Shown here: positions 49,265 to 61,558 of the stretch, one piece after another | How the letters are laid out: every line of letters begins with the position of its first letter | Position numbering within the stretch: position 1 is the first letter of the stretch | DNA from: Pseudomonadota bacterium | GTDB taxonomy: Bacteria; Myxococcota_A; Polyangia; Fen-1088 | NCBI GenBank assembly: GCA_017881245.1 | Contig: JADGRC010000193.1 | Location: forward strand, 21,747-85,746 | Reading direction: 5' to 3' | Length of the DNA: 64,000 bases | The notes under the pieces: model-generated | Told to the model about the DNA's origin: nothing | Database searches by the model: none | What the model saw: the letters and a program-made list of their open reading frames with translations, nothing else | Made by a program: the position numbers and the translations under genes

Positions 49265-49519
49265 AAGTTTTCCCCCCGACGATACCCGGAACCGTGTTTT
49301 GTCCAGTCAAAGTAGGCGTATTGGACTCAGAGGATGAGATTGTACAGCAATAGTCCCCGAACGGCTCTGGCCCGAAATAGTCCGCCTGGCACCTGCTTCC
49401 TGGATCGCTGACGACTTGGAAAACAGCCTTTGGCTCCCTTCAAATCGGCGGTCTTTCCCGCTACAGTCTGGCGCCCGCGCTGGCGACATGGTTCGGGCTC
49501 GACGAGACCCCAGAAGAGC

Positions 49520-50302
49520 ATGCCCAAGTTCAACGCCAACCTCACCATGATGTTCAACGAAGTGGATTTCCTCGCCCGCTTCGCGGCAGCGGCCAGGGCG
49601 GGGTTCCATGGGGTCGAGTTCCTTTTTCCGTATGCCCACGACAAGGAACAGGTGGCCGAGATCGCGGCTCGGAACAAGCTGCAGGTCATCCTGTTCAACC
49701 TGCCTCCTGGCGACTGGAACGCGGGCGACCGGGGGATGGCCTGCGATCCGTCTCGGACGCTCGAGTTTCAAGACAGCGTCGGGAAGGCCATCGACTACGC
49801 GCGGGCGCTCGGGTGCGACCGTCTTCACTGCATGGCTGGGTTGATGCCCCGCGGCGTGAACGCGGAGATGATGCGAGAGACATATCTCGAGAATCTGCGC
49901 TTCGCCGGGCAGGAACTCGCCAAGCACGACTTGACGTTGTTGATCGAGGGCATCAACACGCGCGACATTCCCGGTTATTACTTGAATACGTCGCGTCAGG
50001 CGTTCGATCTGATGCACTACGCGTCGGTCCCGAATCTCGCTTATCTCTATGACTGCTACCATATGCAGATTATGGAGGGCGATCTGGCGCCCACGATCGA
50101 GAAGAACCTGCCGCGCATCGCGCACATGCAGGTGGCCGATACCCCCGGCCGCCACGAGCCGGGCACGGGCGAGATCAACTATGCATTCTTGTTTCAACAC
50201 CTCGACCGAATCGGATATCAAGGCTGGGTTGGTTGCGAGTACCGGCCGACAGCCACGACAGAGGCAGGGCTTGGATGGCTCAAGCCATACTTGAAATTCT
50301 AG
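49520..50302 (+). CDS. hyi: Hydroxypyruvate isomerase
   Basis: MPKFNANLTMMFNEVDFLARFAAAARAGFHGVEFLFPY...HCMAG...IAHMQVADTPGRHEPGTGEINY...GYQGWVGCEYRP is the classic Hyi/TIM-barrel sequence. Confidence 0.9.
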   Translation: MPKFNANLTMMFNEVDFLARFAAAARAGFHGVEFLFPYAHDKEQVAEIAARNKLQVILFNLPPGDWNAGDRGMACDPSRTLEFQDSVGKAIDYARALGCDRLHCMAGLMPRGVNAEMMRETYLENLRFAGQELAKHDLTLLIEGINTRDIPGYYLNTSRQAFDLMHYASVPNLAYLYDCYHMQIMEGDLAPTIEKNLPRIAHMQVADTPGRHEPGTGEINYAFLFQHLDRIGYQGWVGCEYRPTATTEAGLGWLKPYLKF

Positions 50303-50312
50303 ATCACAACCC

Positions 50313-51215
50313 ATGAAAATAGATACGCAATTGCAGTCATTGGGATTCGTTGGCCTGGGCATCATGGGTCGCCCCATGGCCGCCAATCTGATCAAGGGCG
50401 GCCGCACGCTGCACCTGCACAGCAGAAGCGGCGTGACGGCGGAGTTGACCTCCGCGGGCGGCATCGCCTGTGGCACCCCGGCCGAAGTCGCGCGGAAGGC
50501 CGACGCGATCGTCATCATGGTTCCTGACACGCCGGACGTGGATAAGGTCCTGTTCGGGCCGGACGGAATCGCCGCTGGTTTGGCGGCCGGGAAGATCGTC
50601 ATCGACATGAGCTCAATCTCGCCGGTGGCGACGAAGGATTTCGCCAAGCGCGTCAATGCCCTTGGTTGCGAATACGTCGATGCGCCGGTTTCGGGAGGCG
50701 AGATCGGCGCCAAGAACGCGGCGCTGACGATCATGGTCGGCGCAAGCGAGAAGACGTTCGAGAGAGTGAAGCCCCTCTTCGAGTTGATGGGCAAGAACAT
50801 CACCTTGGTTGGGGAAAACGGCGCCGGCCAGATATGCAAGGTCGCCAATCAGATTGTCGTCGCGTTGAACATCGAGGCCGTTGCGGAGGCGCTGGTGTTT
50901 GCTGCCAAGGCCGGAGCCGATCCCGCCAGGGTGCGCCAGGCCTTGCTCGGGGGCTTCGCCTCGTCGCGCGTCCTGGAGGTTCACGGCGAGCGCATGATCA
51001 AGAGAACCTTCGAGCCGGGTTTTCGAATCGAGCTGCACCAGAAAGACTTGAACATCGCACTTGGTACCGCGCGTCAACTGGGGGTCAGTCTGCCAAACAC
51101 CGCGACCGTGCAGGAGCTGCTCAATGCCTGCCAGGCTCAGGGTGGCGCCAAGTGGGATCACTCCGCCATGGTTCGCGCGCTGGAAGTCCTGGCCAACCAC
51201 CAGGTGGGCACGTAG
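50313..51215 (+). CDS. glxR: 2-hydroxy-3-oxopropionate (tartronate semialdehyde) reductase
   Basis: LGFVGLGIMGRPMAANL...MSSISP...VDAPVSGGEIGA...GAGQICKVANQ is the beta-hydroxyacid dehydrogenase signature. Confidence 0.85.
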   Translation: MKIDTQLQSLGFVGLGIMGRPMAANLIKGGRTLHLHSRSGVTAELTSAGGIACGTPAEVARKADAIVIMVPDTPDVDKVLFGPDGIAAGLAAGKIVIDMSSISPVATKDFAKRVNALGCEYVDAPVSGGEIGAKNAALTIMVGASEKTFERVKPLFELMGKNITLVGENGAGQICKVANQIVVALNIEAVAEALVFAAKAGADPARVRQALLGGFASSRVLEVHGERMIKRTFEPGFRIELHQKDLNIALGTARQLGVSLPNTATVQELLNACQAQGGAKWDHSAMVRALEVLANHQVGT

Positions 51216-51264
51216 CTCGTCCGGGGCTTCCCCCCCCGGGGCCCCGTGCTGCGGACATGTCGCG

Positions 51265-52542
51265 ATGACTGACCCCGCCCCGCTGCTGCGCCGGATGTTC
51301 GACGCGGCCGTCGCGCGGGCCATGCCCGAGCGATGCTTACCGAGATTTCTGCCGTCCCCGCCCAAGGGGAGAACCGTCGTCGTCGGTGCGGGAAAGGCCG
51401 CCGCCGCCATGGCACAAGCCGTCGAGGCTCATTGGCCACATGAGAGTCGACTCGAGGGACTTGTCGTCACGCGCTATGGGCATCGGCTGCCAACGAATCG
51501 GATCGAAGTGGTCGAGGCGGCGCATCCCGTCCCGGACGCCGCGGGGCAGGCGGCGGCCGCGCGAATTCTTCAGACGGTGGCTGGCCTGACCGGTGATGAT
51601 CTCGTGCTTTGCTTGATATCGGGTGGGGGATCGGCGCTGCTCAGCCTACCGGCGCCAAGTCTCGCGCTGGAGGACAAGCAGGAGGTCAATCGCGCGTTGC
51701 TAAAATGCGGTGCCACCATCGCTGAAATCAACTGCGTTCGGAAACACCTGTCGGCCATCAAGGGCGGACGCCTGGCCGCCGCCTGCTATCCCGCCAGGGT
51801 CGTCACGTTGGCGATCTCCGATGTCCCGGGTGACGATCCTTCTGTGATCGCGTCCGGGCCCACAGTCCCGGATCCGACGACGTTCGCGGACGCGCTCGGT
51901 ACCTTGGCCCGGTATCGCATCGCGGCGCCGAGCGCGGTCATGGAACATCTGCGCGCCGGCCGGCAGGAAACCGAGACCCCGAAGACCGATGATCCGCGCC
52001 TGCGGGGAATAGAGACGTACGTGGTGGCGGCAGCTCAGGAATCGCTGGAGGCGGCGGCGGAGATCGCGCGCGAGGCCGGCATCACGCCCCTGATCCTCGG
52101 CGACAGCTTGGAGGGCGAGGCGCGCGACGTCGCGTTGGTACACGCGGGCATCGCGAGGCAGGTGCTGCGCCACCGCCAGCCGGTTGCCCCGCCGTGCGTG
52201 CTGTTGTCTGGGGGCGAGACCACGGTGACCGTGGTGGGAAACGGAAGGGGAGGGCGCAACGTCGAATTCCTGTTGGCCTTCGCGCTCGGCATGCAAGGGG
52301 CCCCTTTTGTCCATGCCATCGCGGGCGACACCGACGGGATCGATGGGACCGAGGACAACGCGGGCGCCATCGTCTCGCCCGAGACCTTGGGGCGAGCGTC
52401 CTGCCTCGGCATTGATGCCCGCGCTTTCCTGGCCAATAACGACGGCTACGGGATCTTCTCGCGATTGGGCGATCTCGTGATCACGGGTCCGACGCATACG
52501 AACGTCAACGATTTTCGCGCGGTGTTGATTCAAGCGTCGTGA
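51265..52542 (+). CDS. Glycerate 2-kinase / hydroxypyruvate reductase-like protein (MOFRL family, TtuD-type)
   Basis: Start at MTDPAPLLRRMFDAAV. VVGAGKAAAAMAQAVE...LISGGGSALL...INCVRKHLSAIKGGRLA...LLSGGETTVTV.G.GRGGRNVEF...DTDGIDG. Confidence 0.85.
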   Translation: MTDPAPLLRRMFDAAVARAMPERCLPRFLPSPPKGRTVVVGAGKAAAAMAQAVEAHWPHESRLEGLVVTRYGHRLPTNRIEVVEAAHPVPDAAGQAAAARILQTVAGLTGDDLVLCLISGGGSALLSLPAPSLALEDKQEVNRALLKCGATIAEINCVRKHLSAIKGGRLAAACYPARVVTLAISDVPGDDPSVIASGPTVPDPTTFADALGTLARYRIAAPSAVMEHLRAGRQETETPKTDDPRLRGIETYVVAAAQESLEAAAEIAREAGITPLILGDSLEGEARDVALVHAGIARQVLRHRQPVAPPCVLLSGGETTVTVVGNGRGGRNVEFLLAFALGMQGAPFVHAIAGDTDGIDGTEDNAGAIVSPETLGRASCLGIDARAFLANNDGYGIFSRLGDLVITGPTHTNVNDFRAVLIQAS

Positions 52543-52627
52543 CCGATCGCCATGGCGTGATCGATCGTCGCCCAGGGTAACTTTCGACTTGCATACGACA
52601 GCTTCTCCTGCGACAAGCAGGGGCTCC

Positions 52628-53293
52628 ATGTCCGATTCGTCACGCCCGCAATACGCCTTGCACCCGATCGATTCGGTGGTCTTCGACCTCGACGGTACGC
52701 TCTGGGATACGTGCGAACCCTGCGCCCAGGGTTGGAACAACGTGATTGCGAAACATCAAATTGACTTCCGAAAGATCACGGCCGACGACGTGCGCGGGGT
52801 CGCGGGCAAGCCCCACGAGCTGTGCGTGCGCGAGGTCTGCGTGGGACTGCCCGAGCATCAAATCAAGCTCCTGTCCGACGAGTCGGAAAAGGAGGACAAC
52901 CGCTTGATCGCCGAGCGAGGCGGCGTGCTTTATCCAGGTGTCCCCGAAGGGTTGGCGGCGCTGGCGACGCGGTATCCCCTCTTCATCGTCAGCAACTGTC
53001 AGGCGGGATACATCGAAATTTTCATGGCCTCGACCGGTTTCGCTCCGTTGTTTCGTGATCACGAATGTTGGGGCAATACCGGTCGATCCAAGGCGGAGAA
53101 TCTGCGCGCGGTCATCGACCGAAACGATTTGCGAGCGCCCGTGTTCGTGGGCGACACGCCCGGTGATCAAGCGGCGGCGCTGGCCAACGATGTCCCTTTT
53201 GTCTTTGCCCGCTATGGTTTCGGAAGGTGTCAGGAACCCCGCGCCACAGTCGATTCGTTTCAACAATTGCGCGACCTATTGTTGGTCCGATGA
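52628..53293 (+). CDS. HAD-superfamily hydrolase (phosphoglycolate phosphatase-like)
   Basis: VVFDLDGTLWDT (motif I), IVSN (motif II region) and VFVGDTPGD (motif IV). Start may be 52589 or 52628. Confidence 0.8.
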   Translation: MSDSSRPQYALHPIDSVVFDLDGTLWDTCEPCAQGWNNVIAKHQIDFRKITADDVRGVAGKPHELCVREVCVGLPEHQIKLLSDESEKEDNRLIAERGGVLYPGVPEGLAALATRYPLFIVSNCQAGYIEIFMASTGFAPLFRDHECWGNTGRSKAENLRAVIDRNDLRAPVFVGDTPGDQAAALANDVPFVFARYGFGRCQEPRATVDSFQQLRDLLLVR

Positions 53294-54255
53294 TGGCCTG
53301 GAACGACGCCGAGGGCGGTCCCTCCTTCTCGGGGCCTCGAAGACTGCTCCTCAACGACGAGGGCAACTCCGCGTTGCACTACCTCGACCTGGATGCTCCC
53401 GAACGGAACTGGAGGTATGACGGCGCGGGCCGTGATCTCCAGCTGATTGGTAAAGAACGTGTCTTGCGGAGCACCCCGTCTGGTTACGTCGAGCTGGATC
53501 TATCGGCCCGCGGCGCCGTAGTGCGGCAGATCAGCATCGTCGGCCTTCCAGGGGGCATCGAGTCCGCGCGCCGATTGTCGAACGGGCACACGGTGGTGGC
53601 GGGGAATGGCGGCGGAGGGATCTTCGTCTGGGAGGTGGATTCCGCAGCCACCCCGGTATCCGGACGCACCCAGTTCTTCGGCGGCATCGACAAGGTTCGC
53701 CTGATTCGTCTCACCGGGGAGGGGACGTTCCTGTTTTGCTCAGAGACGAATGACCGCAGTGTCATTCACGAACTCGCCTGGAACGGGGGCATGAGAACCT
53801 TGTTCGAGGTGCCCGACGACATGCCGACGGACAGCATGGTCAAGGCCGTGCGGATCGCGCCGCACGTCGTTACGGTTTCAACCGGGTACGCCGCCAGCCT
53901 GCTCGTGATCGACACCGAGGGGCGACGCGCATTGCGAACCGTTGGTGGCAAGGGGCACCCCGAGCCGAGAGGCGCGGACCGACCACTCTCGATGTTCTTC
54001 TTTTCCGGTTACCAGATGCTGCCAAACGGCGATTTTCTGATCAGCAACTGGCAGGGTCACAGCGCCGAGCGAAACGGGCAGGGCTACCAACTGCTGAGGT
54101 TCAACCCCGCGGGGCAACTGATCGCGCGATTCGACCAAACCCTGTTCCCGACAATCGCGTCCCTGAACAACGTGATCGCACTTGACGGCCTGGACACAAC
54201 CAAGCTGCACGATGAGCCCAACGGTGTTCTCGTACCGCTCCTACCCATGCCGTGA
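53290..54255 (+). CDS. Beta-propeller-like protein of unknown family (cytoplasmic form, no signal peptide)
   Basis: ATGA overlap with the HAD stop. Full-length similarity by eye to the C-terminal domain of the 58770-60134 product (FFSGYQMLPNGDFLISNWQGH versus FFSGFVRLQNGNYVVANWLGH; ND...Y....P..NW near the N-termini). Confidence 0.65.
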   Translation: MMAWNDAEGGPSFSGPRRLLLNDEGNSALHYLDLDAPERNWRYDGAGRDLQLIGKERVLRSTPSGYVELDLSARGAVVRQISIVGLPGGIESARRLSNGHTVVAGNGGGGIFVWEVDSAATPVSGRTQFFGGIDKVRLIRLTGEGTFLFCSETNDRSVIHELAWNGGMRTLFEVPDDMPTDSMVKAVRIAPHVVTVSTGYAASLLVIDTEGRRALRTVGGKGHPEPRGADRPLSMFFFSGYQMLPNGDFLISNWQGHSAERNGQGYQLLRFNPAGQLIARFDQTLFPTIASLNNVIALDGLDTTKLHDEPNGVLVPLLPMP

Positions 54256-54270
54256 GCGGTGCGGTCAAGA

Positions 54271-56715
54271 CTAGGACGACTGGTCCCGGCGATCCCGCTG
54301 CCTTCCGCGCCGCCGCATCACGCCCAACGCCACCGCGCCCAACGACAACAATGCGAGCCAAAGGCCCGTCTTGCGTAGTCCCTGCGAGGCTGGCCCGACG
54401 GAACAGAATCCATGCGTATTGGAGGCTGGTTTGGGATTGGACATCGGCATGGCGGTCGAAGTCGTTTGTGGCTCTGGCTCGTCGTCCAGCTCCATCAGGT
54501 ATTCGACCAATTGTCCAAGCTCCGCTTGGCTCAAGGTGCTGGTGACCCCCATTTGGTCTTTGCTGTTGTACGTCGTGAAGAGCTCCGTCAGGGTCGCGGC
54601 CCGGCCGTCGTGATAGTAGGGGGCGCTCTGCCAGATGCCCTTCAGCGATGGGGTGTCGATTCCGGTCAGCTTTCCGAACAGGCGCGAGCCGGAGGCGGGC
54701 AAGATGGATTGAATGTCATGCACGACGCCCAAGGCGCTGTCGGTGAAATCAGGTCCCGAATGGCAAGGAATGCAGCCAGCGCGCTCGAATATCTTCTTTC
54801 CCTCCAGGGCGGCCGCCGTGAAGGTGCCATCGGGGTTGCGATACGGGCTGCGGGGCACCTTGTCCAAGGACGTGATGTACGCGGCTAGCGCGTCCAATTC
54901 CACGCTGACACCGGCCGACGCCTTCATGAACGGATCGTAACGGCGCTCCGTCGTCGGGGCGCTGCCGGTGGTGGGCGCAGCACCACCGTTCGGGTAGACG
55001 ACGGGGACCGTCACGCAGCGGGAATCGAATTCGGCGTCCGACATGAATCCAGAACCACCGAAGTCGTGGCGGATGTCGCGTTCGAAATCCTGAATCTCGT
55101 CGAAATTGGCGCTCCAGTGAACGCGCCCTTCAGCTATTCCCCGAACGCCCAGGAGCGATTTCGTGTTGCGTAGGCCTTCGCCGCGGTCGGTAAAATCCCA
55201 CACACGCCCGTCGCTGAATCCGCCGAAATGGCACGATACGCAGCTCATGTAGCCCGCGTGCCCCATGCGGGTGTCGGCGGCATTGAAGAAAATTTTCTTG
55301 CCCATCAGCAGCTGGGGGGACAGTGGCTCGACGTCGACGGTCGGGATTCGGGTCGTCGGTGCGGGGGCCGTGTGATCCGCCGAGGACAGCGACGATGTCA
55401 CGTCGTAGACGATCACCTCCCGTGACAGGAAGGCGTTGACGAACAACTTTCCGTCGGGCGTCATCACCAGACCGTCCGGCGCGTTCCCAACGTCCCTGAT
55501 GCCGCTGACCTCCTGGGCTGCGTAGGCGTCCATGATCCCGATCCAATTGCTCGGCTGAATCAGAACGAACGCGTAGTCGCCATGTGGCGCGAACGCCACC
55601 GACACGGGCGTGGATCGATTGTCGACGTCCTGCCGTTTTTCGATCATCTCTTTTTCGGTCTTGAGGTCGATCGCGCAAACGACCGGACGAACGAAGTTGT
55701 CCGCTGTCAAGGACTGTCCGTCGCGTTGAATCCCGCGCGCGGTGTCGTCCTTTTTTGCCGTCACCCAGGCCTGGGTTCCGTCGGGGGAAATCAGGAAAGA
55801 CGACACGTAATTCGGAACGCCGCGCCCCGATGACTGGGTGTCGGGTCCCTTGTCGAACGCCAACTGGATCGTGTTTTTCAACGTGAAGGTGTCGGGCGAC
55901 ACCACCCAGACCTCTCCATGGTCGACCGGTGAAATGAACCGGGTGACGAAAATACGCCCGTCCTCCGCGACCGACACGCCGGCGGGGGTTGGCCCCAACA
56001 TCAAGTTGCGCTTGATTTGGCGGGACGCGGGATCGATCTCGACCAGCTTGCCAGTCGCGTACAGTGACACGTAAGCCATGCCGCTCGGACCAAACACGAC
56101 GGAGCGCGGCTGCGACGCGTAGGGCAGGGCGATACGCGTCTTGATAGCGCCCGAATCGCCGTCCAGGACGACGATTTCATCGGACATTCGGTTGGCGACC
56201 CAGATCGTTCCGTCGGGAGCCTGGGCCAGGAAATGCGGATCCTTGCCGACCTGAATCTCGGCCTTCCGTTTCAACTGAACGGTGTCGATGATGCTGACGC
56301 TGTTGCTGTCGGGGTTGACGTTCCACACCTGATGGCGCGCGGCATCCAAAATGATGCTGGACGAATTGCTGGGCGGCTTGGCGGTTGCCGGGGTGTACAC
56401 GGTCTGAATCGCCGTGTCGCTGGTGTTGGCCGCGTCGTCGCTGGCCGACACGATCACCGTGTAATGACCAACGGCCGTGTAGCTGTGCGCGGACTGCATG
56501 TCGGGTGCGAACGGCGCGCTGCTTCCATCGCCGAAGTTCCAGCGGAAAGTCACGGCGCCGACCGCATCGGTGACGCTGGCTACCCGGAAGGTTTGGGCTT
56601 GTCCAACCACCACCGGGTCAGTCGGTCCCAGGGTGATTGTGAGAGCTGCGGCCGAGCGTGAACCGAGCAGAGCAGCCAGCGCGGTCCCCACCGCGAGGAT
56701 GGGGAACCTCTTCAT
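54271..56715 (-). CDS. Surface protein: PKD domain, YVTN-type beta-propeller, di-haem cytochrome c peroxidase (CCP/MauG family), and a MYXO-CTERM-like tail
   Basis: Signal peptide. PKD (FRWNFGDGS...HSYTAVGHYTVIVSASD). Propeller repeats (VWVANRMSDEIVVLD, AYVSLYATGKLVEID). CVSCHFGGFSDGRVWDF and CIPCHSGPDFTDS. Tail GFCSVGPAS...LWLALLSLGAVALGVMRRRGR. Confidence 0.85.
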   Translation of the reverse strand: MKRFPILAVGTALAALLGSRSAAALTITLGPTDPVVVGQAQTFRVASVTDAVGAVTFRWNFGDGSSAPFAPDMQSAHSYTAVGHYTVIVSASDDAANTSDTAIQTVYTPATAKPPSNSSSIILDAARHQVWNVNPDSNSVSIIDTVQLKRKAEIQVGKDPHFLAQAPDGTIWVANRMSDEIVVLDGDSGAIKTRIALPYASQPRSVVFGPSGMAYVSLYATGKLVEIDPASRQIKRNLMLGPTPAGVSVAEDGRIFVTRFISPVDHGEVWVVSPDTFTLKNTIQLAFDKGPDTQSSGRGVPNYVSSFLISPDGTQAWVTAKKDDTARGIQRDGQSLTADNFVRPVVCAIDLKTEKEMIEKRQDVDNRSTPVSVAFAPHGDYAFVLIQPSNWIGIMDAYAAQEVSGIRDVGNAPDGLVMTPDGKLFVNAFLSREVIVYDVTSSLSSADHTAPAPTTRIPTVDVEPLSPQLLMGKKIFFNAADTRMGHAGYMSCVSCHFGGFSDGRVWDFTDRGEGLRNTKSLLGVRGIAEGRVHWSANFDEIQDFERDIRHDFGGSGFMSDAEFDSRCVTVPVVYPNGGAAPTTGSAPTTERRYDPFMKASAGVSVELDALAAYITSLDKVPRSPYRNPDGTFTAAALEGKKIFERAGCIPCHSGPDFTDSALGVVHDIQSILPASGSRLFGKLTGIDTPSLKGIWQSAPYYHDGRAATLTELFTTYNSKDQMGVTSTLSQAELGQLVEYLMELDDEPEPQTTSTAMPMSNPKPASNTHGFCSVGPASQGLRKTGLWLALLSLGAVALGVMRRRGRQRDRRDQSS

Positions 56716-58703
56716 TGCGTGACCGACTTGCTACGCCGCGTGCGAGTTCTACGCGCGCCCAACGCAAGCGCGACGGCGATGAGCGACAGCACGCCCGTCG
56801 AGCCAGTACCTCCGGGTACGTTGCAGGCGCAACCAGCGCTTCCACCGGCGGCCATGGGGGCCGAGCCCCCGTTGCTGGAAACGGAGGCGCCACCCGTGCC
56901 TGTCACCGGACTGGAACCGCCGGAGGCGGAGGCGACGCCTCCGCTCGTACCACCCGTGCTGATGACGGCGGCGCCGCCGGTGCTGCTTCCAACCGTTCCA
57001 CCGGTCGCCGCGCTGCCGCCAGATGCGGTGCCACCTGTCGAACCCATCATGCCCCCGGTCGGGGTACCCCCACCCGAGCCGGTCGCGGACACTCCACCCG
57101 CGCCCCGACCGCCCGCGCCGACGCCAGCTCCGCCCGAGCCGACGACGGTGTTACCGCCGGCCCCCCCACCCGCGGTGACGGTCGCGCCGGTGGAAAAACG
57201 CGCCATGGCCGCCGTCGTGATGGTGTTGCCCACGAGATCCTTCAAACCACCGGCCGGAATCACGACCTCGTAGGTCGCGTTCGCTTCCAGGGCTGCCTTG
57301 GGGCCGAACGAGATTGCGTTGAAGGATGACTTGCTGAAAGAGCCGTCCAATGCCGTTCCGCCCATCTTACGGACAAAGATGTTCGTGCTGTTGACGGTCC
57401 CGAGATCGATGTCCTCCGAGAAGAAGACGGTAACCCGGCTGGTGGTCGGCTGTTTCGTGTCGCCGTCGTTCGGAAACACCTTGACGACCTCGGGGGCCGT
57501 CGTGTCGGGCGCCATCGTGTGCGGGATCAGCGCGGCGCCGGTTCCGTGATCGTTACCAAGGTAGACCAGGTTTCCGATGATGGTCGCGAAATCGAAGTCG
57601 CCGCCCACGCCCTGGGGATCCGTCCCGTGGCCCACCTGCGTGATGGCCGCCATGTTGTGGAGATCCCATTTCTTATAGCCCTCGCTCGACTGTCCACAGA
57701 TCGCGAACTGGCTTTGATACGTGCAGTAGCCTCCGCGATCACTGCCGGACTTCGTCTGAGCCATCATGGTGACCGCGGTTGGACTCCACTTCATGAATGC
57801 GTAGTCACCATTGGTGCCCGGGCCGTAAATCATGTCGCCGATGACGACCGATGAATACAGGCTGACGGAGGTTTTGCCGGTGGCCAACAAGAAGGGTTTG
57901 GCCGGATTTCCAACGTCCAGAACGGATATGCTCGAGGTGGCCTGGTCCATTTGGGCCACGACCAGGTAGTTGCCGGCGCCGTAGGTCGGTCCGATACGAA
58001 AATTGCCGAGTGATCCGGTGGCTACCTTCGTGACCAACGTCGCGTGCGCGGGATCGGTCGCATCGACGATGTAGACACCGTTGCCCGTCCCGCCCGCGTA
58101 AAGGTAAGGATAGACCCAGGACAACATCCAGGCGGCGTTGTCGTAGTCACCACCGTTTACTCCGGCCAGCGTCAGCGTGCCCACCGCCATGGGATTCATC
58201 GGGTCCGTGAAATCCCAGAACATGACCCCGGTCTGGGTGGGGAATGCGACGTAATCCTTGCCGTTGACCATCGCGACGGGGATCGCGTGCAATTCACGGC
58301 CGCTGGCCAATTCAGGCCCCGTTGTCATCGACTTCAACAACTTCGGATTCCGCGGATCCTTTACGTCGAAGATATTGAAAGAAAGCGGTGGCTTTCCACT
58401 GTCGTTGGAACCCGGGACGAGCAGCACGTCCCGCAGCATGAGAACCGTGTTGCTGCCCGGAGGGCCGGCAGGAAATTTCCCGGTGCCGGTGGCTCCGAAA
58501 TTGGCGATCGGCTTTTCCAATTCCGCCGCCGTGTACGTGAGGTTCCCTAGGCCCGTGGCCCCGGCGAGCGATGGGACGAGGACGAGGAGCAAGCCCATCA
58601 TCGCGCGAGCGACACCCATGTGACGTCTTATGGGGATCCCCGCGAAACAGCGTTTCCGTGCTTGCCCTGTCCCCCGGCCGTTACTCGACTCTATCGCGTT
58701 CAT
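56712..58703 (-). CDS. LVIVD-repeat beta-propeller surface protein with an SbsA/Big_5-like Ig domain, a Gly-rich stalk and a MYXO-CTERM-like tail
   Basis: LVIVD-type repeats (NGVYIVDATDPAHATLV; ISVLDVGNPAKPFLL). APEVVKVFPNDGDTKQPTTSRVTVFFSEDIDLGTV. Tail GGSAGCACNVPGG...LSLIAVALALGARRTRTRR. ATGA overlap with the downstream gene. The likely true start is the ATG at 58619 (MGVARAMMGLLLVLVPSLAGA). Confidence 0.8.
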   Translation of the reverse strand: MNAIESSNGRGTGQARKRCFAGIPIRRHMGVARAMMGLLLVLVPSLAGATGLGNLTYTAAELEKPIANFGATGTGKFPAGPPGSNTVLMLRDVLLVPGSNDSGKPPLSFNIFDVKDPRNPKLLKSMTTGPELASGRELHAIPVAMVNGKDYVAFPTQTGVMFWDFTDPMNPMAVGTLTLAGVNGGDYDNAAWMLSWVYPYLYAGGTGNGVYIVDATDPAHATLVTKVATGSLGNFRIGPTYGAGNYLVVAQMDQATSSISVLDVGNPAKPFLLATGKTSVSLYSSVVIGDMIYGPGTNGDYAFMKWSPTAVTMMAQTKSGSDRGGYCTYQSQFAICGQSSEGYKKWDLHNMAAITQVGHGTDPQGVGGDFDFATIIGNLVYLGNDHGTGAALIPHTMAPDTTAPEVVKVFPNDGDTKQPTTSRVTVFFSEDIDLGTVNSTNIFVRKMGGTALDGSFSKSSFNAISFGPKAALEANATYEVVIPAGGLKDLVGNTITTAAMARFSTGATVTAGGGAGGNTVVGSGGAGVGAGGRGAGGVSATGSGGGTPTGGMMGSTGGTASGGSAATGGTVGSSTGGAAVISTGGTSGGVASASGGSSPVTGTGGASVSSNGGSAPMAAGGSAGCACNVPGGTGSTGVLSLIAVALALGARRTRTRRSKSVTQ

Positions 58704-58769
58704 GGGATGCCTCGTTTTTTTTGGTTTCAGGATCGCGGGATTCGGCTGTGTTGTTGAGCGAAAGTGCGC

Positions 58770-60134
58770 TTACTGGACGATGAAGACATTGGTGATCTGG
58801 CGGGCCAGGGTTTGATTGCCCCACCGCCAGACCGGCGTACTGTCTGGGGCGAATTCGACGATGTGCGGCGTGGAGGCCGCGGGCGCTGAAAGGTGACCCA
58901 GCCAGTTCGCCACGACGTAGTTGCCATTTTGCAACCGCACGAACCCGGAGAAGAAGTCGAGGCCGATGGATGCCAACTTGGGCATCGTCTTGCCGCCCAC
59001 CGTGCTGATAATACTCTTGTCAGCCCCCAGTTCCACGACGGTTGATGGATCGCCCGTGGTCGCGTAGGCCCCGCCAGCGTCGCGCCACCAAACGGCATAC
59101 CCCTTGGTTCCGGCACCCATGTCGGCCATCCAGACCACGGCGCCGGTATCGGTGACCTCGTAGACGATCTGTGTCTTCGAAAACCAGTAGTGCCCGGTCA
59201 CCGGATTGCGGTTGATCGCCCGTAGATTGTCACCCACGGGGATGGCGAAACGCCGGATCTCGGTTCCGGTCGAATTCACGATGAGGATAGTGTTGTCGTT
59301 CCCCAGGGCCGTTGTGCCGTCAGGCAACCGGCACGCGCCGCTGATGCTGGACTTGTTCGAAACCTTGACCAGGGATGTCCCGTCCGTGACGTCAAATTCG
59401 CCAAATCCCTTTTCAAGACTGACCAAGATCGCCTTGCCGGTCTTGGCCATCGGGTTGTCGACGATTTCGATTGTCCTCGGAGAATTGGCGCCCGTGTCGC
59501 CGACCGCCTTCGTCCAGTTCTTGCTGGGGTCGAATTCGTTGACGTAGGTGATCTGGTTCCGTGCGTTGTCGTTGGCGAAGAATTCGTGGCAGGTGGTATT
59601 GGGAGGTGTCGGCTTGCAGGCAGGCTGGGCGCCTCCCCCCATTCCGGTCGCCCCTCCCATGGGTGCGCCACCCGAACCGACGCGGCCGCCGGACGCTGGT
59701 CCCACGGTCCCGCCTGTGCTGCCGATTCTTCCTCCGTTCGCGCCCCCGGTACCCCCGCCCACCATGCCGCCCGTGGCAGGGGCACCGCCACCCGTTCCGG
59801 GCGTACCGGTGTTTCCGCCCGACCCAGGCCCCTCGGCGCCACCGCTCCCGATCACAACTGTGTTGCCGCCCGATCCGGAACCAACAAGTCCACCAGATCC
59901 GGGACCTACCGTCCCGCCCGTGGAAGTGGAGCCTCCGCCGGTACCAATCCCTGGCGCGGACGAGCCGCCAGATCCGAACTGGCTTCCCGCACTGCTACAG
60001 GAGGAACCAAGCACGATCAGAGTCATCGCACCGAGGGTCCGGAAGAGCGATTGCGGGGGGACGACCGACGGCTTGGATTGGTCGGGAATGCCGCCGCCGC
60101 CGGGGGAGAAACGTGGGGAGATTCTCTCGCTCAT
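58770..60134 (-). CDS. Lipoprotein with a Gly-rich linker and a beta-propeller-like domain paralogous to the 53290-54255 product
   Basis: Lipobox LGSSC. About 130 aa of G/S/T linker. The C-terminal domain aligns by eye with the 53290 product over its whole length. Confidence 0.7.
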   Translation of the reverse strand: MSERISPRFSPGGGGIPDQSKPSVVPPQSLFRTLGAMTLIVLGSSCSSAGSQFGSGGSSAPGIGTGGGSTSTGGTVGPGSGGLVGSGSGGNTVVIGSGGAEGPGSGGNTGTPGTGGGAPATGGMVGGGTGGANGGRIGSTGGTVGPASGGRVGSGGAPMGGATGMGGGAQPACKPTPPNTTCHEFFANDNARNQITYVNEFDPSKNWTKAVGDTGANSPRTIEIVDNPMAKTGKAILVSLEKGFGEFDVTDGTSLVKVSNKSSISGACRLPDGTTALGNDNTILIVNSTGTEIRRFAIPVGDNLRAINRNPVTGHYWFSKTQIVYEVTDTGAVVWMADMGAGTKGYAVWWRDAGGAYATTGDPSTVVELGADKSIISTVGGKTMPKLASIGLDFFSGFVRLQNGNYVVANWLGHLSAPAASTPHIVEFAPDSTPVWRWGNQTLARQITNVFIVQ

Positions 60135-60603: not shown

Positions 60604-61332
60604 ATGAAACGATTCACAGGCATGTCGACGTTGGTCACTGGGGGGACATCGGGCATCGGCTGGGCTATCGCCGAGGCGTTCGCCGCCGAAGGGGCGGATG
60701 TGCGCGTGACGGGGTTAACACTGGCGGAGGCCGAAAACGCCACCGCGAGGGCGGTCGGCCGATCCATTGAGGCGGCGGCCCTTGACGTCACCGATTCGGC
60801 GGCGGTTGGGAACTACGTGCGGGGCCTGCCGCGTCTGGATGCGTTGGTGAATTGCGCGGGAACCATCCGCCGCCGGGATGAATATGACCTCGCCGTCTTC
60901 GAGCAGGTCGTCGGCGTGAATCTGATCGGCACCATGCGGATGTGCGAGGCGGCGCGCGGTTATCTGGCCAAGACCGGTGGGGCCATCGTGAACCTCGGCT
61001 CGATGTACAGCTTCTTCGGAGCGGCCCATGCGCCGGCTTACGCCGCCTCGAAGGGGGCCGTGGTGCAGTTGACGAAGTCGCTGGCGCGCGAGTACGCGTC
61101 GCAAAACATCCGCGTCAATGCGGTCACGCCTGGCTGGATCAGGACGCGGATCACCGAGCCCGTGTACTCCGATCCCGTGAGGAGCGCGCCCATCGTCGAT
61201 CGCACACCGCTTGGTCGTTGGGGCGAGCCCCAAGACGTCGCCGGCCCGGTGCTATTTCTCTGCTCGTCGGCCGCGGCCTTCGTCACCGGTGTCGCGTTGC
61301 CGGTCGACGGCGGCTATCTCCTGACCGGCTGA
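60604..61332 (+). CDS. Short-chain dehydrogenase/reductase (FabG-like)
   Basis: LVTGGTSGIGWAIA (TGxxxGxG), NCAG, and YAASKGAVVQLTKSLA (YxxxK). Confidence 0.9.
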   Translation: MKRFTGMSTLVTGGTSGIGWAIAEAFAAEGADVRVTGLTLAEAENATARAVGRSIEAAALDVTDSAAVGNYVRGLPRLDALVNCAGTIRRRDEYDLAVFEQVVGVNLIGTMRMCEAARGYLAKTGGAIVNLGSMYSFFGAAHAPAYAASKGAVVQLTKSLAREYASQNIRVNAVTPGWIRTRITEPVYSDPVRSAPIVDRTPLGRWGEPQDVAGPVLFLCSSAAAFVTGVALPVDGGYLLTG

Positions 61333-61430
61333 CTGACCGGTTGACGCAATGACGACCGTCATCGCCTGACGGGTCGACGCAGTGACGGCCGGCGAGAAGA
61401 AGGTCCACCGTCGCACCCTAACCGCGTGTG

Positions 61431-61490
61431 CGAACATATATTCCACTTGACCACCGGGATGGAACATATGTTCTAATGCGAAACATATGG
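61431..61490 (+). promoter_or_regulatory. Tandem GAAC-N4-GTTC-type palindromic operator candidates overlapping a promoter-like TTGACC element
   Basis: CGAACATATATTCC (61431-44), TTGACC (61447-52), the perfect 12-bp palindrome GAACATATGTTC (61462-73), and a third half-site GAAACATATGG (61480-90). Confidence 0.4.
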
Positions 61491-61558
61491 CGTCGCTCGT
61501 TCCGCTGGGATGCTTCCTGCAACGCGTGTTTGCGTTCACGAAGGGGCGACGCGAGCGC

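What the first reader, a model, noticed from the sequence alone, without database searches (positions are those of the whole stretch)
53290..60134. Cluster of four propeller-type proteins: two paralogues of an unassigned family flanking a PKD-propeller-di-haem peroxidase and an LVIVD protein
The products of 53290-54255 (no signal peptide, coupled to the HAD gene) and 58770-60134 (lipoprotein with a Gly-rich stalk) align by eye over their full length. Examples are FFSG(Y/F)..L.NG.(F/Y)(L/V)(I/V).NW.GH and ND....Y.....P..NW. I cannot place either in a named family. Between them lie two ATGA-coupled surface proteins. One is a PKD plus YVTN-like propeller fused to a CCP/MauG-type di-haem peroxidase. 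The other is an LVIVD-repeat propeller with an Ig-like domain. A peroxidase fused to a propeller and co-transcribed with an LVIVD protein suggests an extracellular oxidative or cross-linking system with an unknown substrate.
Basis: partly seen in the sequence, partly recalled or inferred. Interest (0 to 1): 0.6.

Follow-up and report, generated by a model that had tools for sequence, protein, structure and literature searches.

The report
Split surface di-haem propeller enzyme cluster
A soil myxobacterium (Polyangia) genome carries a surface-anchored, two-gene copy of a widespread but never studied two-haem enzyme, and beside it sit two copies of an equally unstudied six-bladed propeller protein that elsewhere travels with sugar-degrading genes.

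Summary
All four genes are real and sit at the stated coordinates, and the two "unassigned" proteins are true paralogues. They are not one fixed four-gene system.

**Obligate core: P4 then P3.**
- P4 (56712-58703, minus) is an LVIVD-type propeller plus a Big_5 Ig domain.
- P3 (54271-56715, minus) is PKD, a YVTN propeller and a di-haem CCP/MauG-like domain.
- The two genes overlap by ATGA.
- They were adjacent in 9 of 9 other Polyangia genomes that have P4, and they are fused into one protein in many phyla.
- P3's closest solved relatives are hydrazine synthase gamma and beta, but it fails the tests for being hydrazine synthase.
- In sister proteins the LVIVD head is replaced by a galactose/glyoxal-oxidase-type copper oxidase, and lectin modules are often present.

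**Facultative neighbours: P1 and P2.**
- P2 is a lipoprotein and P1 has no signal peptide.
- Both belong to a rare six-bladed propeller family whose only solved member is PDB 3NO2, of unknown function.
- Relatives are fused to GH88, lectin domains or HZS_alpha-type cytochromes.
- They lie beside P4-P3 only in this lineage and in one clear Verrucomicrobiota MAG (a second match is weak).

**Best reading (inferred).** This is a cell-surface, peroxide-linked oxidative enzyme that acts on glycans. The propeller paralogues and the neighbouring GH78 and glycerate-pathway genes would handle the sugar products.

The parts
58770..60134 (-). P2: a 454-aa lipoprotein. Residues 1-170 (59625-60134) are the signal/lipobox region and a Gly-rich stalk. 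Residues 171-454 (58773-59624) are a six-bladed propeller of the 3NO2-like family. It is the first gene of the P2-P4-P3 string.
   Evidence: Translation. PDB 3NO2 at 3.8e-7. Profile hit at 9.5e-71 in the own genome. Orthologue in L001 at 56% identity. The same P2-P4-P3 order is seen in L013, L025 and L038.
56712..58703 (-). P4: a 663-aa protein. It has a signal peptide and an LVIVD-type propeller (about residues 45-400, 57504-58571). A Big_5 Ig-like domain follows (residues 400-505, 57189-57506). The rest (56715-57188) is a Gly-rich linker and a MYXO-CTERM-like tail. It has no CxxCH motif.
   Evidence: Pfam Big_5 8e-21 and LVIVD 20.5 bits. AF2 pLDDT 92.1, propeller plus Ig. Foldseek gives only generic propellers, the best being Sb-PTE 5HRM at TM about 0.5. 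About 110 orthologue clusters, several named MYXO-CTERM protein. The tail scores TIGR03901 18.8 bits against a cut-off of 20.
54271..56715 (-). P3: an 814-aa protein. It has a signal peptide and a PKD domain (residues 27-105, 56401-56637). A YVTN-type propeller follows (about residues 110-460). The di-haem CCP/MauG-like domain spans residues 460-745 (54481-55338). The tail (54274-54408) is MYXO-CTERM-like.
   Evidence: Pfam and NCBIfam. PDB: 1L0Q 4e-23, hydrazine synthase gamma 5C2V_C 1.3e-22, CCPs at 1e-11, hydrazine synthase beta 6e-5. The tail scores TIGR03901 18.4 bits.
55228..55242 (-). First haem c binding motif, CVSCH (P3 residues 492-496).
   Evidence: Invariant C..CH in 121 of 121 homologues.
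54760..54774 (-). Second haem c binding motif, CIPCH (P3 residues 648-652).
   Evidence: Invariant in 120 of 120 aligned homologues.
56712..56715 (-). ATGA overlap between the P4 stop and the P3 start (translational coupling).
   Evidence: Sequence read directly. Gaps of 2-5 bp between the same two genes in five distant genomes.
53290..54255 (+). P1: a 321-aa six-bladed propeller of the 3NO2-like family with no signal peptide. Its start overlaps the HAD stop by ATGA. It converges on P3.
   Evidence: AF2 pLDDT 96.6. Foldseek best hit 3NO2, E 3e-15. Orthologues at 55-81% identity, none with a signal peptide or a Pfam family. Overlap read directly.
49430..53293 (+). Context: the operon upstream of P1.
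Evidence: Pfam. The same order is seen in the sister genome L013.
60604..64000 (+). Context: an SDR (60604-61332) and a GH78-type alpha-L-rhamnosidase (61487 to the window end), transcribed divergently from P2.
   Evidence: Pfam. A GH78 gene also sits next to the P1 orthologue in L025.

Best explanation
The region holds two linked modules.

**Module A (P4 then P3, with P2 upstream on the same strand).** This is a split, cell-surface-anchored copy of a widespread, uncharacterised exported enzyme. Its plan is: head (propeller plus Ig-like domain), PKD, YVTN-type propeller, di-haem CCP/MauG-type domain.

Shown:
- The domain plan.
- Both haem c sites, and an invariant His-Trp between them.
- The obligate P4-P3 pairing and the frequent fusion into one chain.
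- Replacement of the LVIVD head by a galactose/glyoxal-oxidase-type copper oxidase head in sister proteins.
- Frequent lectin or CBM modules in relatives.

Inferred:
- The di-haem domain uses H2O2 as a peroxidase or peroxygenase.
- It either consumes peroxide made at the head or oxidises the head or its bound substrate.
- The P4 propeller supplies the substrate or metal site.
- The substrate is a glycan or glycan-derived alcohol at the cell surface.

**Module B (P2 lipoprotein, P1 without a signal peptide).** These are two paralogues of the rare 3NO2-like six-bladed propeller family. The family has a conserved polar set: Asp23, Gln51, Arg95, Arg137, Arg140, Glu161, Asn253, His257 and Asp299.

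Inferred: they bind or convert uronate-type sugar products, as a lyase or lactonase would, outside and inside the cell. The products would feed the adjacent GH78, SDR and glycerate-pathway genes.

The link between modules A and B is facultative.
For: **P4-P3 pairing.**
- ATGA overlap in the window.
- Adjacent in the same order in 9 of 9 other Polyangia genomes with P4, from three further families, with 2-5 bp gaps.
- The flanks there are unrelated housekeeping genes.
- Fused single proteins occur: L014 at 1604 aa, P0500-P0513, and 18 of the best 80 loci across phyla.

**Di-haem domain.**
- Both CxxCH motifs, H533-W534 and PYxHDG are invariant or nearly so in 121 homologues.
- PDB hits are hydrazine synthase gamma at 7.7e-25 and CCPs at 4e-11.

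**Head swapping and glycan modules.**
- Of 30 loci without an LVIVD head, 19 carry Glyoxal_oxid_N, Kelch and GO-like_E_set.
- All 30 have PKD, and others carry PA14, F5/8 type C, legume lectin or CBM6.
- The L014 fusion carries a GH115_C domain.

**Surface anchoring.** Both tails give MYXO-CTERM as their best NCBIfam hit, and orthologues are annotated that way.

**Paralogue family.**
- AF2 pLDDT is 96.6.
- 3NO2 is the best fold match and the best profile match.
- Only 332 cluster representatives match in a library of 1.8 billion proteins.
- Fusions include GH88 (P0305), F5/8C plus Big_5, and NPCBM_assoc.
- The GH88 fusion sits in a TonB receptor-KduI-GH88::propeller locus.
- GH78 is adjacent in L025 and near in the window.
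- A GH88-like gene lies next to a further paralogue in L001.
- The sugar-acid context (RpiR, aldehyde dehydrogenase, two SDRs, ABC transporter, transaldolase) recurs.

**Link between A and B.**
- The genes lie together in at least three different arrangements in Polyangia contigs.
- A secreted family member lies 11 nt after a fused LVIVD-di-haem gene in an Akkermansiaceae MAG.
- The propeller is fused to HZS_alpha-type di-haem cytochromes in P0317 and P0343.
Against: - No biochemical data exist for any member, so the substrate and the use of H2O2 are inferred.
- P3 and P4 in this window carry no lectin or CBM module.
- The LVIVD head shows no copper-oxidase signature. Its cysteines are not conserved across phyla, and it has no close solved relative. 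It may not make H2O2 at all.
- The sixth ligand of haem 2 is unresolved. The Met ligand of CCPs aligns with Tyr716, which is Tyr in only 53% of homologues, while Met722 is present in 78%.
- At genome level the two modules co-occur only in the window's own genome in a 151-genome class sample. The distant P4-P3 carriers lack the paralogue family.
- P1 lacks a signal peptide, whereas most family members are exported.
Confidence: 0.42

Rival explanations
1. MauG/MbnH-type maturase. The P3 di-haem domain does not act on an external substrate. It oxidises a residue of its partner P4 (or of its own propeller) to build a protein-derived cofactor or cross-link. The mature P4 is then the working enzyme or binding protein.
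For: - In the known MauG and MbnH systems, the di-haem enzyme is encoded next to its protein substrate (established knowledge of the MauG-preMADH and MbnH-MbnP pairs).
- P4-P3 is an obligate pair and is often fused.
- The CCP Met ligand position aligns with Tyr716 in P3, which is the MauG-like state.
- H533-W534 between the haems is invariant.
- NCBIfam gives weak MbnH and MauG hits.
- Tyr, His, Asp and Glu residues in the LVIVD head are conserved across phyla.
Against: - Tyr716 is present in only 53% of 121 homologues, and Met722 in 78%.
- MauG and MbnH score far below hydrazine synthase gamma and the CCPs.
- The same di-haem unit is fused to quite different heads (copper oxidase, PA14/lectin, FG-GAP). 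That fits a general redox partner better than a specific maturase.
Confidence: 0.2
2. Coincidental neighbours. P4-P3 is a self-contained unit. P2, P1, GH78, the SDR and the glycerate-pathway genes are a separate sugar-catabolic set that happens to lie beside it in this lineage. The four-propeller cluster has no joint function.
For: - The paralogue family is absent from 12 of the 18 genomes that carry a P3- or P4-type gene.
- The two families overlap only in the own genome among 151 class representatives.
- P2-P1 pairs exist without P4-P3 nearby (L001 and L024).
- Only 2-3 of 80 loci across phyla have a family member within 6 kb.
Against: - The four genes stay together through at least three different rearrangements in Polyangia contigs.
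- P2 is on the same strand 66 nt upstream of P4.
- A very rare family (332 representatives) turns up 11 nt after the fused gene in a different phylum.
- That family is also fused to haem proteins with an HZS_alpha domain.
Confidence: 0.25
3. Plain peroxide defence. P3 is a surface-tethered cytochrome c peroxidase that detoxifies external H2O2. The propellers and Ig/PKD domains serve only as spacers or adhesins.
For: - The domain has CCP-type sequence similarity.
- Both proteins have surface-anchor tails.
- Fusion to H2O2-producing copper oxidase heads in relatives shows that peroxide is relevant.
Against: - Classical bacterial CCPs are small soluble periplasmic proteins fed by cytochrome c. 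No electron donor is encoded beside the pair in five distant genomes.
- The propeller is always fused to the haem domain and is as conserved as the haem domain.
- The LVIVD head has a polar residue set conserved across phyla, which does not fit a spacer.
Confidence: 0.1
4. Hydrazine-synthase-like nitrogen chemistry. P3 reduces NO to hydroxylamine, or performs related N-oxide chemistry, as the gamma subunit of hydrazine synthase is proposed to do.
For: The best solved sequence relatives are hydrazine synthase gamma and beta. The top NCBIfam hits are the hydrazine_gamma and hydrazine_BC models.
Against: - Scores of 87-88 bits fall far below the cut-offs of 625 and 1250.
- P3 has an invariant Trp where the anammox enzyme has gamma-His144, as reported for non-anammox homologues (PMC12758564).
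- The partner P4 has no haem motif and no HZS_alpha domain.
- The proteins are surface-anchored in an organism that carries a caa3 oxidase operon.
Confidence: 0.03

Closest known systems
Hydrazine synthase beta and gamma subunits (Kuenenia stuttgartiensis, PDB 5C2V; fused beta-gamma in Scalindua) and their non-anammox homologues described in PMC12758564
   Same: Both have a YVTN-type propeller followed by a di-haem CCP-like domain with two CxxCH motifs. This is the best solved sequence match (gamma 7.7e-25, beta 6e-5). Both are encoded next to a propeller-containing partner gene that lies upstream, as in clades I-III of that paper.
   Different: - Scores are far below the NCBIfam cut-offs.
- P3 has Trp instead of gamma-His144.
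- The partner is a haem-free LVIVD propeller plus Big_5, not a haem-bearing alpha subunit.
- P3 carries an extra PKD domain and a MYXO-CTERM-like anchor.
- The host carries a caa3 oxidase operon.
- The paper does not mention Myxococcota, LVIVD or PKD.
Bacterial di-haem cytochrome c peroxidases and MauG/MbnH (e.g. PDB 1IQC, 3O5C, 1EB7, 6E1C)
   Same: Both have two c-type haems, a conserved Trp between them, the G-x-RN motif and the PY(x)HDG motif.
   Different: - Pfam CCP_MauG scores 24.4 bits, just under the 25.6 cut-off.
- The domain is fused to a propeller and a PKD domain.
- The protein is surface-anchored.
- The distal ligand of haem 2 is unclear (Tyr716 or Met722).
- No cytochrome or cupredoxin donor gene lies nearby.
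Copper radical oxidase (galactose/glyoxal oxidase, AA5) fused to the same PKD-propeller-di-haem unit in other phyla
   Same: The downstream unit is the same, and the head has the same topology (propeller followed by an Ig-like domain). This head is found in 19 of 30 loci that lack an LVIVD head.
   Different: P4 has no Glyoxal_oxid_N, Kelch or GO-like_E_set match and no conserved Cys-Tyr pair. Its closest fold match is only a generic propeller.
PDB 3NO2, BACCAC_01654 of Bacteroides caccae (structural-genomics protein of unknown function)
   Same: It is a full-length profile match to the P1/P2 family at 8.8e-31. It is also the best Foldseek match to the P1 model, with E 3e-15 and TM 0.65/0.75. 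Both are six-bladed propellers of about 280-300 residues.
   Different: Identity is only about 21%. No function is known for 3NO2, and no paper in the library discusses it. P2 adds a lipoprotein signal and a Gly-rich stalk.

Membership tests
Di-haem CCP/MauG superfamily (P3 C-terminal domain) | Two CxxCH haem c binding motifs with proximal His | tested here: met
   CVSCH (492-496) and CIPCH (648-652) are present. They are invariant in 121 and 120 homologues respectively.
Di-haem CCP/MauG superfamily (P3 C-terminal domain) | Conserved Trp between the two haems (Trp94 in P. aeruginosa CCP, Trp93 in MauG) | tested here: inconclusive
   H533-W534 is invariant in 121 homologues. It lies about 16 residues after the G-L-RNT motif, which is the spacing expected from the CCP RN...FWDGR pattern (my knowledge). 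HMMER did not align this stretch directly.
Di-haem CCP/MauG superfamily (P3 C-terminal domain) | Distal ligand of the second haem (Met in CCP, Tyr in MauG) | tested here: inconclusive
   The TM of the CCPs aligns with T715-Y716. Tyr716 is present in 64 of 121 homologues. Met722 is present in 94 of 121, and His in 12.
Di-haem CCP/MauG superfamily (P3 C-terminal domain) | Pfam CCP_MauG gathering score | tested here: not met
   P3 scores 24.4 bits against a cut-off of 25.6. The fused homologue L014 scores 34.4 bits. PDB CCPs match at 4e-11.
Hydrazine synthase beta-gamma | NCBIfam hydrazine_gamma / hydrazine_BC / hydrazine_beta cut-offs | tested here: not met
   Scores are 87.8, 87.0 and 40 bits against cut-offs of 625, 1250 and 560.
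Hydrazine synthase beta-gamma | Gamma-His144 in place of the CCP Trp, and gamma-Cys165 as a third covalent haem link | tested here: not met
   P3 has an invariant Trp534, as PMC12758564 reports for non-anammox homologues. The only Cys in the inter-haem stretch, Cys567, lies in a poorly conserved region.
Hydrazine synthase beta-gamma | Haem-bearing alpha subunit (HZS_alpha domain) encoded alongside | tested here: not met
   P4 has no CxxCH motif and no HZS_alpha hit. 5C2V chain A is not among the top 50 fold matches. The HZS_alpha genes of this genome lie on another contig, C149.
LVIVD-repeat propeller / choice-of-anchor B (P4) | Pfam LVIVD repeat match and propeller fold | tested here: met
   LVIVD scores 20.5 bits against a cut-off of 20.2. 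Many orthologues carry PF08309. The AF2 model is a propeller. choice_anch_B scores only 17.2 bits against a cut-off of 100.
MYXO-CTERM sorting signal (P3 and P4 tails) | TIGR03901 match: Cys-containing motif, hydrophobic helix, Arg-rich end | tested here: inconclusive
   It is the best NCBIfam hit for both tails, but the scores of 18.4 and 18.8 bits fall below the cut-off of 20. The Cys, helix and Arg-rich layout is visible. The orthologue consensus is GCGC...RR.R.
3NO2-like six-bladed propeller family (P1, P2) | Full-length profile and fold match to PDB 3NO2 | tested here: met
   The profile scores 8.8e-31 over 260 positions. Foldseek ranks 3NO2 first at E 3e-15. phmmer gives 4.6e-5 for P1 and 3.8e-7 for P2.
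   P1 and P2 have no SGL, GSDH or PQQ hit. Of 91 family members, 16 give weak PQQ_2 hits, and SGL is not among the six families matched at E <= 0.001. One fusion protein carries a separate SGL domain.
Copper radical oxidase AA5 (for P4) | Glyoxal_oxid_N, Kelch and GO-like_E_set domains, and a Tyr-Cys cofactor pair | tested here: not met
   P4 has no such Pfam hits. Its cysteines are not conserved across phyla. Galactose oxidase ranks only 26th in Foldseek, at TM 0.46.
Polysaccharide lyase or lactonase activity (for P1/P2) | Catalytic activity on uronate-containing glycans or sugar lactones | not testable with these tools
   The evidence is indirect only: the GH88 fusion and KduI neighbour, GH78 adjacency, and the conserved Arg, His, Asn, Glu and Asp set.

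The most novel reading that the evidence does not exclude
The LVIVD-head / PKD / propeller / di-haem unit may be a previously unrecognised class of secreted or surface-anchored haem enzymes that oxidise glycans using H2O2. It would be the bacterial, haem-based counterpart of auxiliary-activity enzymes. The 3NO2-like six-bladed propellers (P2 outside the cell, P1 inside) would then be a new enzyme family, lyase- or lactonase-like, that processes the oxidised or uronate products. Together with GH78 and the glycerate pathway, this would form an oxidative polysaccharide-utilisation locus in Polyangia.
Probability: 0.18. Interest if true: 0.8.

Novelty: new variant of a known kind. Interest (0 to 1): 0.55.

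Why it matters
**Scale of the gap.** The PKD-propeller-di-haem unit is very common. One scan of species-representative genomes returned at least 545 loci, from Myxococcota, Verrucomicrobiota, Bacteroidota, Proteobacteria, Fibrobacteres, Chloroflexota, Acidobacteriota and Planctomycetota. No member has a known function.

**Relevance to anammox.** It is also the nearest non-anammox relative of hydrazine synthase beta-gamma. Its chemistry therefore bears on how that enzyme arose (PMC12758564).

**What this window adds.**
- A clean split, surface-anchored version of the unit.
- A recurrent third partner: a rare six-bladed propeller family with a solved but unexplained structure (3NO2).
- A sugar-catabolic neighbourhood.

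Together these give concrete, testable hypotheses: peroxide-dependent oxidation of a rhamnose- or uronate-containing glycan.

**Organisms for testing.** Cultivable carriers are available: Polyangium jinanense SDU13, Variovorax sp. CF079 and Aquimarina sp. Aq78.

Tried and rejected
**Tried without result.**
- The search for related loci with the paralogue alignments A1 and A3 failed because no stretch was conserved enough. I therefore could not get named-genome contexts for the 3NO2-like family. The single genome-contig scan went to the P3 haem domain instead.
- Literature searches for 3NO2 / Bacteroides caccae / propeller, for LVIVD with cytochrome c peroxidase, and for MYXO-CTERM with cytochrome c peroxidase found nothing relevant.
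- I looked for a conserved third gene around P4-P3 in five distant Polyangia genomes. The flanks are unrelated: RelA/SpoT, PurL, an NRPS-like gene, a radical SAM gene, TPR and LarA.
- The contexts of the HZS_alpha::propeller fusions lie on short contigs and told me nothing. The P0261 context was also uninformative.
- The promoter and terminator scan gave nothing above background.

**Considered and rejected.**
- P4 as a haem-free homologue of hydrazine synthase alpha. It has no HZS_alpha hit and no 5C2V_A fold match.
- The P1/P2 propeller as the alpha-subunit propeller. The family profile does not hit 5C2V_A. In the fusion proteins it is an extra domain at either end.
- P4 as a copper radical oxidase. 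It has no matching domain hits and no conserved Cys.
- The 49307-50848 minus-strand ORF (513 aa, no Pfam hit) as a real gene. It overlaps the plus-strand hyi and glxR genes and is probably spurious.

Full report
**1. What is in the sequence**

The window comes from a 6.2-Mb, 534-contig genome bin of the class Polyangia (Myxococcota). The closest database proteins are labelled Polyangiaceae or Myxococcales.

P2 (58770-60134), P4 (56712-58703) and P3 (54271-56715) lie head to tail on the minus strand.
- P2 and P4 are 66 nt apart, with a GAGG before the P4 ATG.
- P4 and P3 overlap by ATGA.

P1 (53290-54255) is on the plus strand.
- It overlaps the stop of a HAD gene by ATGA.
- It converges on P3 with a 15-nt gap.
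- Upstream of it on the same strand are a HIBADH/GlxR-like reductase, a MOFRL glycerate kinase and the HAD gene.

On the far side of P2, transcribed divergently, lie an SDR and a GH78-type rhamnosidase.

**2. The two "unassigned" proteins are paralogues of a rare, unnamed propeller family**

*Paralogy.* BLASTP of P1 against P2 gives E 1e-9 and 23% identity over the whole propeller.

*No named family.* Neither protein has a significant Pfam or NCBIfam match.

*Solved relative.* Both hit one solved structure, 3NO2, a Bacteroides caccae protein of unknown function.
- A profile of 91 family members matches 3NO2 over its full length at 8.8e-31.
- The AlphaFold model of P1 (pLDDT 96.6) is a propeller of about 24 strands. 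Its best Foldseek match is 3NO2 (E 3e-15, TM 0.65/0.75). Everything else is a generic propeller.

*Size of the family.* It is small: 332 representatives at 50% identity in a library of 1.8 billion proteins. Among 91 members only weak Mala_s_1-like, PQQ_2 and arylsulfotransferase hits occur.

*Conserved residues.* Nearly invariant polar residues are D23, Q51, R95, R137, R140, E161, N253, H257 and D299. They sit at strand ends, roughly one per blade. That is what a site around the central channel would look like. This is an inference, because I could not read the model coordinates.

*Localisation.* Most members have signal or lipoprotein leaders. P1 and its orthologues (55-81% identity) have none.

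*Other copies.* The window's genome has a third member, a lipoprotein with a Gly-rich stalk, on contig C135.

**3. What the paralogue family travels with**

In relatives, P2-type and P1-type genes are usually adjacent on one strand:
- L001 has a 422-aa protein that is 56% identical to P2, followed by the P1 orthologue.
- Two JGI contigs show the same pairing.
- L024 has the reverse order.

Recurrent neighbours are an RpiR/SIS regulator, an aldehyde dehydrogenase, two SDRs, an ABC transporter, a transaldolase/FSA and GH78.

Domain fusions in distant members:
- GH88 (P0305).
- Big_5 plus F5/8 type C (P0290).
- NPCBM_assoc (P0381, P0390).
- An SGL domain (P0341).
- In P0317 and P0343, HZS_alpha-domain proteins with two CxxCH motifs, with the propeller at the N- or the C-terminus.

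The GH88 fusion lies in a TonB receptor-KduI-GH88::propeller locus. That is the classical layout for using unsaturated uronates. A further paralogue in L001 lies next to a GH88-like gene.

These observations tie the family to glycans that contain uronate or rhamnose and, separately, to haem proteins. They do not show whether it binds, cleaves or isomerises anything.

**4. P4-P3 is the conserved core**

*P3.* It is PKD plus a YVTN-type propeller plus a di-haem domain.
- Its best solved relatives are an archaeal S-layer YVTN/PKD protein (1L0Q), hydrazine synthase gamma (1.3e-22 for the whole protein, 7.7e-25 for the haem domain alone), CCPs (about 1e-11) and hydrazine synthase beta (6e-5).
- In 121 homologues both CxxCH motifs, G-E-G-L-R-N-T, H533-W534 and P-Y-x-H-D-G are invariant or nearly so.
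- The Met ligand of CCPs aligns with Tyr716, the MauG state. Tyr is there in only 53% of homologues, while Met722 is present in 78%. The sixth ligand is undecided.

*P4.* It is a propeller plus a Big_5 Ig domain. It has no haem motif and no close solved relative.

*Anchoring.* Both proteins end in Cys, a hydrophobic helix and an Arg-rich tail. MYXO-CTERM is the best NCBIfam hit for both tails, just under the cut-off. Orthologues are annotated that way.

*Pairing.*
- In a 151-genome sample of the class, P4-like genes occur in 10 genomes.
- In all 9 genomes other than the window's own, a P3-like gene follows directly on the same strand, with gaps of 2-5 bp in the five I inspected.
- The flanks there are unrelated.
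- Second copies in two genomes of the window's own genus also have the pair.

*Fusion.*
- One genome has a single 1604-aa protein: LVIVD, Big_5, PKD, propeller, di-haem and GH115_C.
- Many 1300-1360-aa proteins have the same domain order.

**5. The wider family**

A scan of one genome per species with the haem-domain alignment returned at least 545 loci from many phyla. They are 42-66% identical to P3 in that domain.

In the best 80 loci:
- The propeller plus di-haem core is present wherever the locus reaches far enough upstream; two loci cut at the contig end show only the haem domain.
- An LVIVD head plus Big_5 lies directly upstream in 35. It is in the same ORF in 18 and in a separate ORF in 17.

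Of 30 loci without an LVIVD head:
- 19 carry Glyoxal_oxid_N, Kelch and GO-like_E_set. That is a galactose/glyoxal-oxidase-type copper radical oxidase.
- All 30 carry PKD.
- PA14, F5/8 type C, legume lectin, Laminin_G_3 and CBM6 modules also occur.

Earlier notes of this scan had proposed the head swapping and the lectin modules. I reproduced both independently here.

The LVIVD head keeps E137, H139, W163, D164, Y187, Y200, Y202, Y283, Y326, D369, N378 and D385 across phyla, but not its cysteines. It therefore looks like a functional site that is not of the copper-oxidase type.

**6. Are the four genes one system?**

Only partly.

*For a link.*
- In Polyangia contigs the four genes stay close in at least three arrangements: the window type (also L013, L021 and L025), an all-on-one-strand type, and a type with two other genes in between.
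- At least ten metagenome contigs appear to carry both a P1 orthologue and a P3 or P4 orthologue. I infer this from matching contig lengths.
- A Myxococcales MAG has the P2-P4-P3 order.
- In an Akkermansiaceae MAG, a secreted 284-aa family member starts 11 nt after the fused LVIVD-di-haem gene.
- A weaker case exists in a Chthoniobacteraceae MAG.

*Against a link.*
- The paralogue family is missing from all the more distant Polyangia genomes that have P4-P3.
- In the 151-genome sample the family is found in 9 genomes and P4 in 10, with only the window's genome in common.
- P2-P1 pairs exist without P4-P3 nearby.

I conclude that P4-P3 is obligate and P2/P1 are facultative companions.

**7. Mechanism**

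*Shown.* The domain plan, the haem sites, the pairing and fusion, the head swapping and the glycan-type accessory modules.

*Inferred.*
- In sister proteins the same unit is wired to an H2O2-producing copper oxidase. The most economical reading is therefore that the di-haem domain handles H2O2.
- It would either remove or use the peroxide made at the head, or oxidise the head or its substrate. Peroxidases are known to keep galactose oxidase in its active radical state (established practice with that enzyme; my knowledge).
- With an LVIVD head, the chemistry of the head itself is unknown.
- The glycan link rests on lectin, CBM and GH115_C modules in relatives, and on the GH78, GH88, KduI and sugar-acid context of the companion propellers.
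- The glycerate-pathway operon that ends in P1 fits the breakdown of aldarate- or uronate-type sugars through tartronate semialdehyde (knowledge of the GarL/GarR/GarK route). No aldolase or dehydratase for that route was seen in the window.

I put about 0.4 on the glycan-directed peroxide-dependent reading. I put 0.2 on a MauG/MbnH-type maturase role towards P4, 0.1 on plain peroxide defence and 0.03 on hydrazine-synthase-like nitrogen chemistry. Separately, I put about 0.25 on the neighbours being functionally unrelated to P4-P3.

**8. Comparison with what is known, and novelty**

The only paper I found that touches this family is PMC12758564. It reports many fused beta-gamma-like homologues of hydrazine synthase outside anammox bacteria, with Trp in place of gamma-His144 and no known function. 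It does not mention Myxococcota, LVIVD or PKD.

P3 fails the membership tests for hydrazine synthase: the score cut-offs, the His/Trp position and the haem-bearing alpha partner. It sits in the CCP/MauG superfamily at the level of motifs.

This copy is a new variant of that kind. It is split, MYXO-CTERM-anchored and LVIVD-headed, and it has a 3NO2-like propeller companion. Several other windows of this scan hold members of the same unit, so the unit itself is no longer a surprise within the scan. What is new here is the companion family and its glycan and haem fusions.

Noticed in passing
L014:7945-12759 (G005:C11, same family as the window's genome): A single 1604-aa ORF joins the LVIVD head, Big_5, PKD, the propeller, the di-haem domain and a GH115_C (alpha-glucuronidase C-terminal) domain. 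It is a natural fusion of P4 and P3 with a carbohydrate-type module.
   Followed up: partly
P0317 and P0343 (metagenome ERZ23498500; L032:4064-7465, L033:307-3729): These are proteins of about 1135 aa in which a 3NO2-like propeller is fused to an HZS_alpha-domain protein with two CxxCH motifs. The propeller is N-terminal in one and C-terminal in the other.
   Followed up: partly
Own genome, contig C149:1757-1975 and 6377-6550: Two HZS_alpha-domain genes (open frames of 874 and 1003 aa) lie 4.5 kb apart on another contig. The domain is found in 14 of 21 related genomes and also in Bacteroides thetaiotaomicron (control).
   Followed up: no
Own genome, contig C135:12812-14077 (minus): A third member of the P1/P2 family: a 421-aa lipoprotein with a long Gly-rich stalk. 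It lies next to a PAS hybrid histidine kinase/response regulator gene.
   Followed up: partly
L034:900-6423 (metagenome ERZ27248732): A TonB-dependent receptor, KduI and a GH88::3NO2-like-propeller fusion lie in a row. This is the layout of an unsaturated-uronate utilisation locus.
   Followed up: partly
window 49307-50848 (minus): A 513-aa ORF with no Pfam hit overlaps the plus-strand hyi and glxR genes. It is probably a spurious frame of the kind common in high-G+C DNA, although tblastn finds it conserved in L013. That conservation may simply reflect the genes on the other strand.
   Followed up: no
L017:6283-9069 (G034): Downstream of a P3 homologue that lacks a detectable P4 partner, and overlapping it by 4 nt, lies a 928-aa FG-GAP plus PKD protein. 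PMC12758564 reports FG-GAP (CRTAC1-like) genes beside hydrazine-synthase-like gene pairs.
   Followed up: no
L021 (G002:C599), same genus: The P1 orthologue follows the glycerate kinase gene directly, with no HAD gene between them. The HAD-P1 coupling seen in the window is therefore not fixed even within the genus.
   Followed up: no
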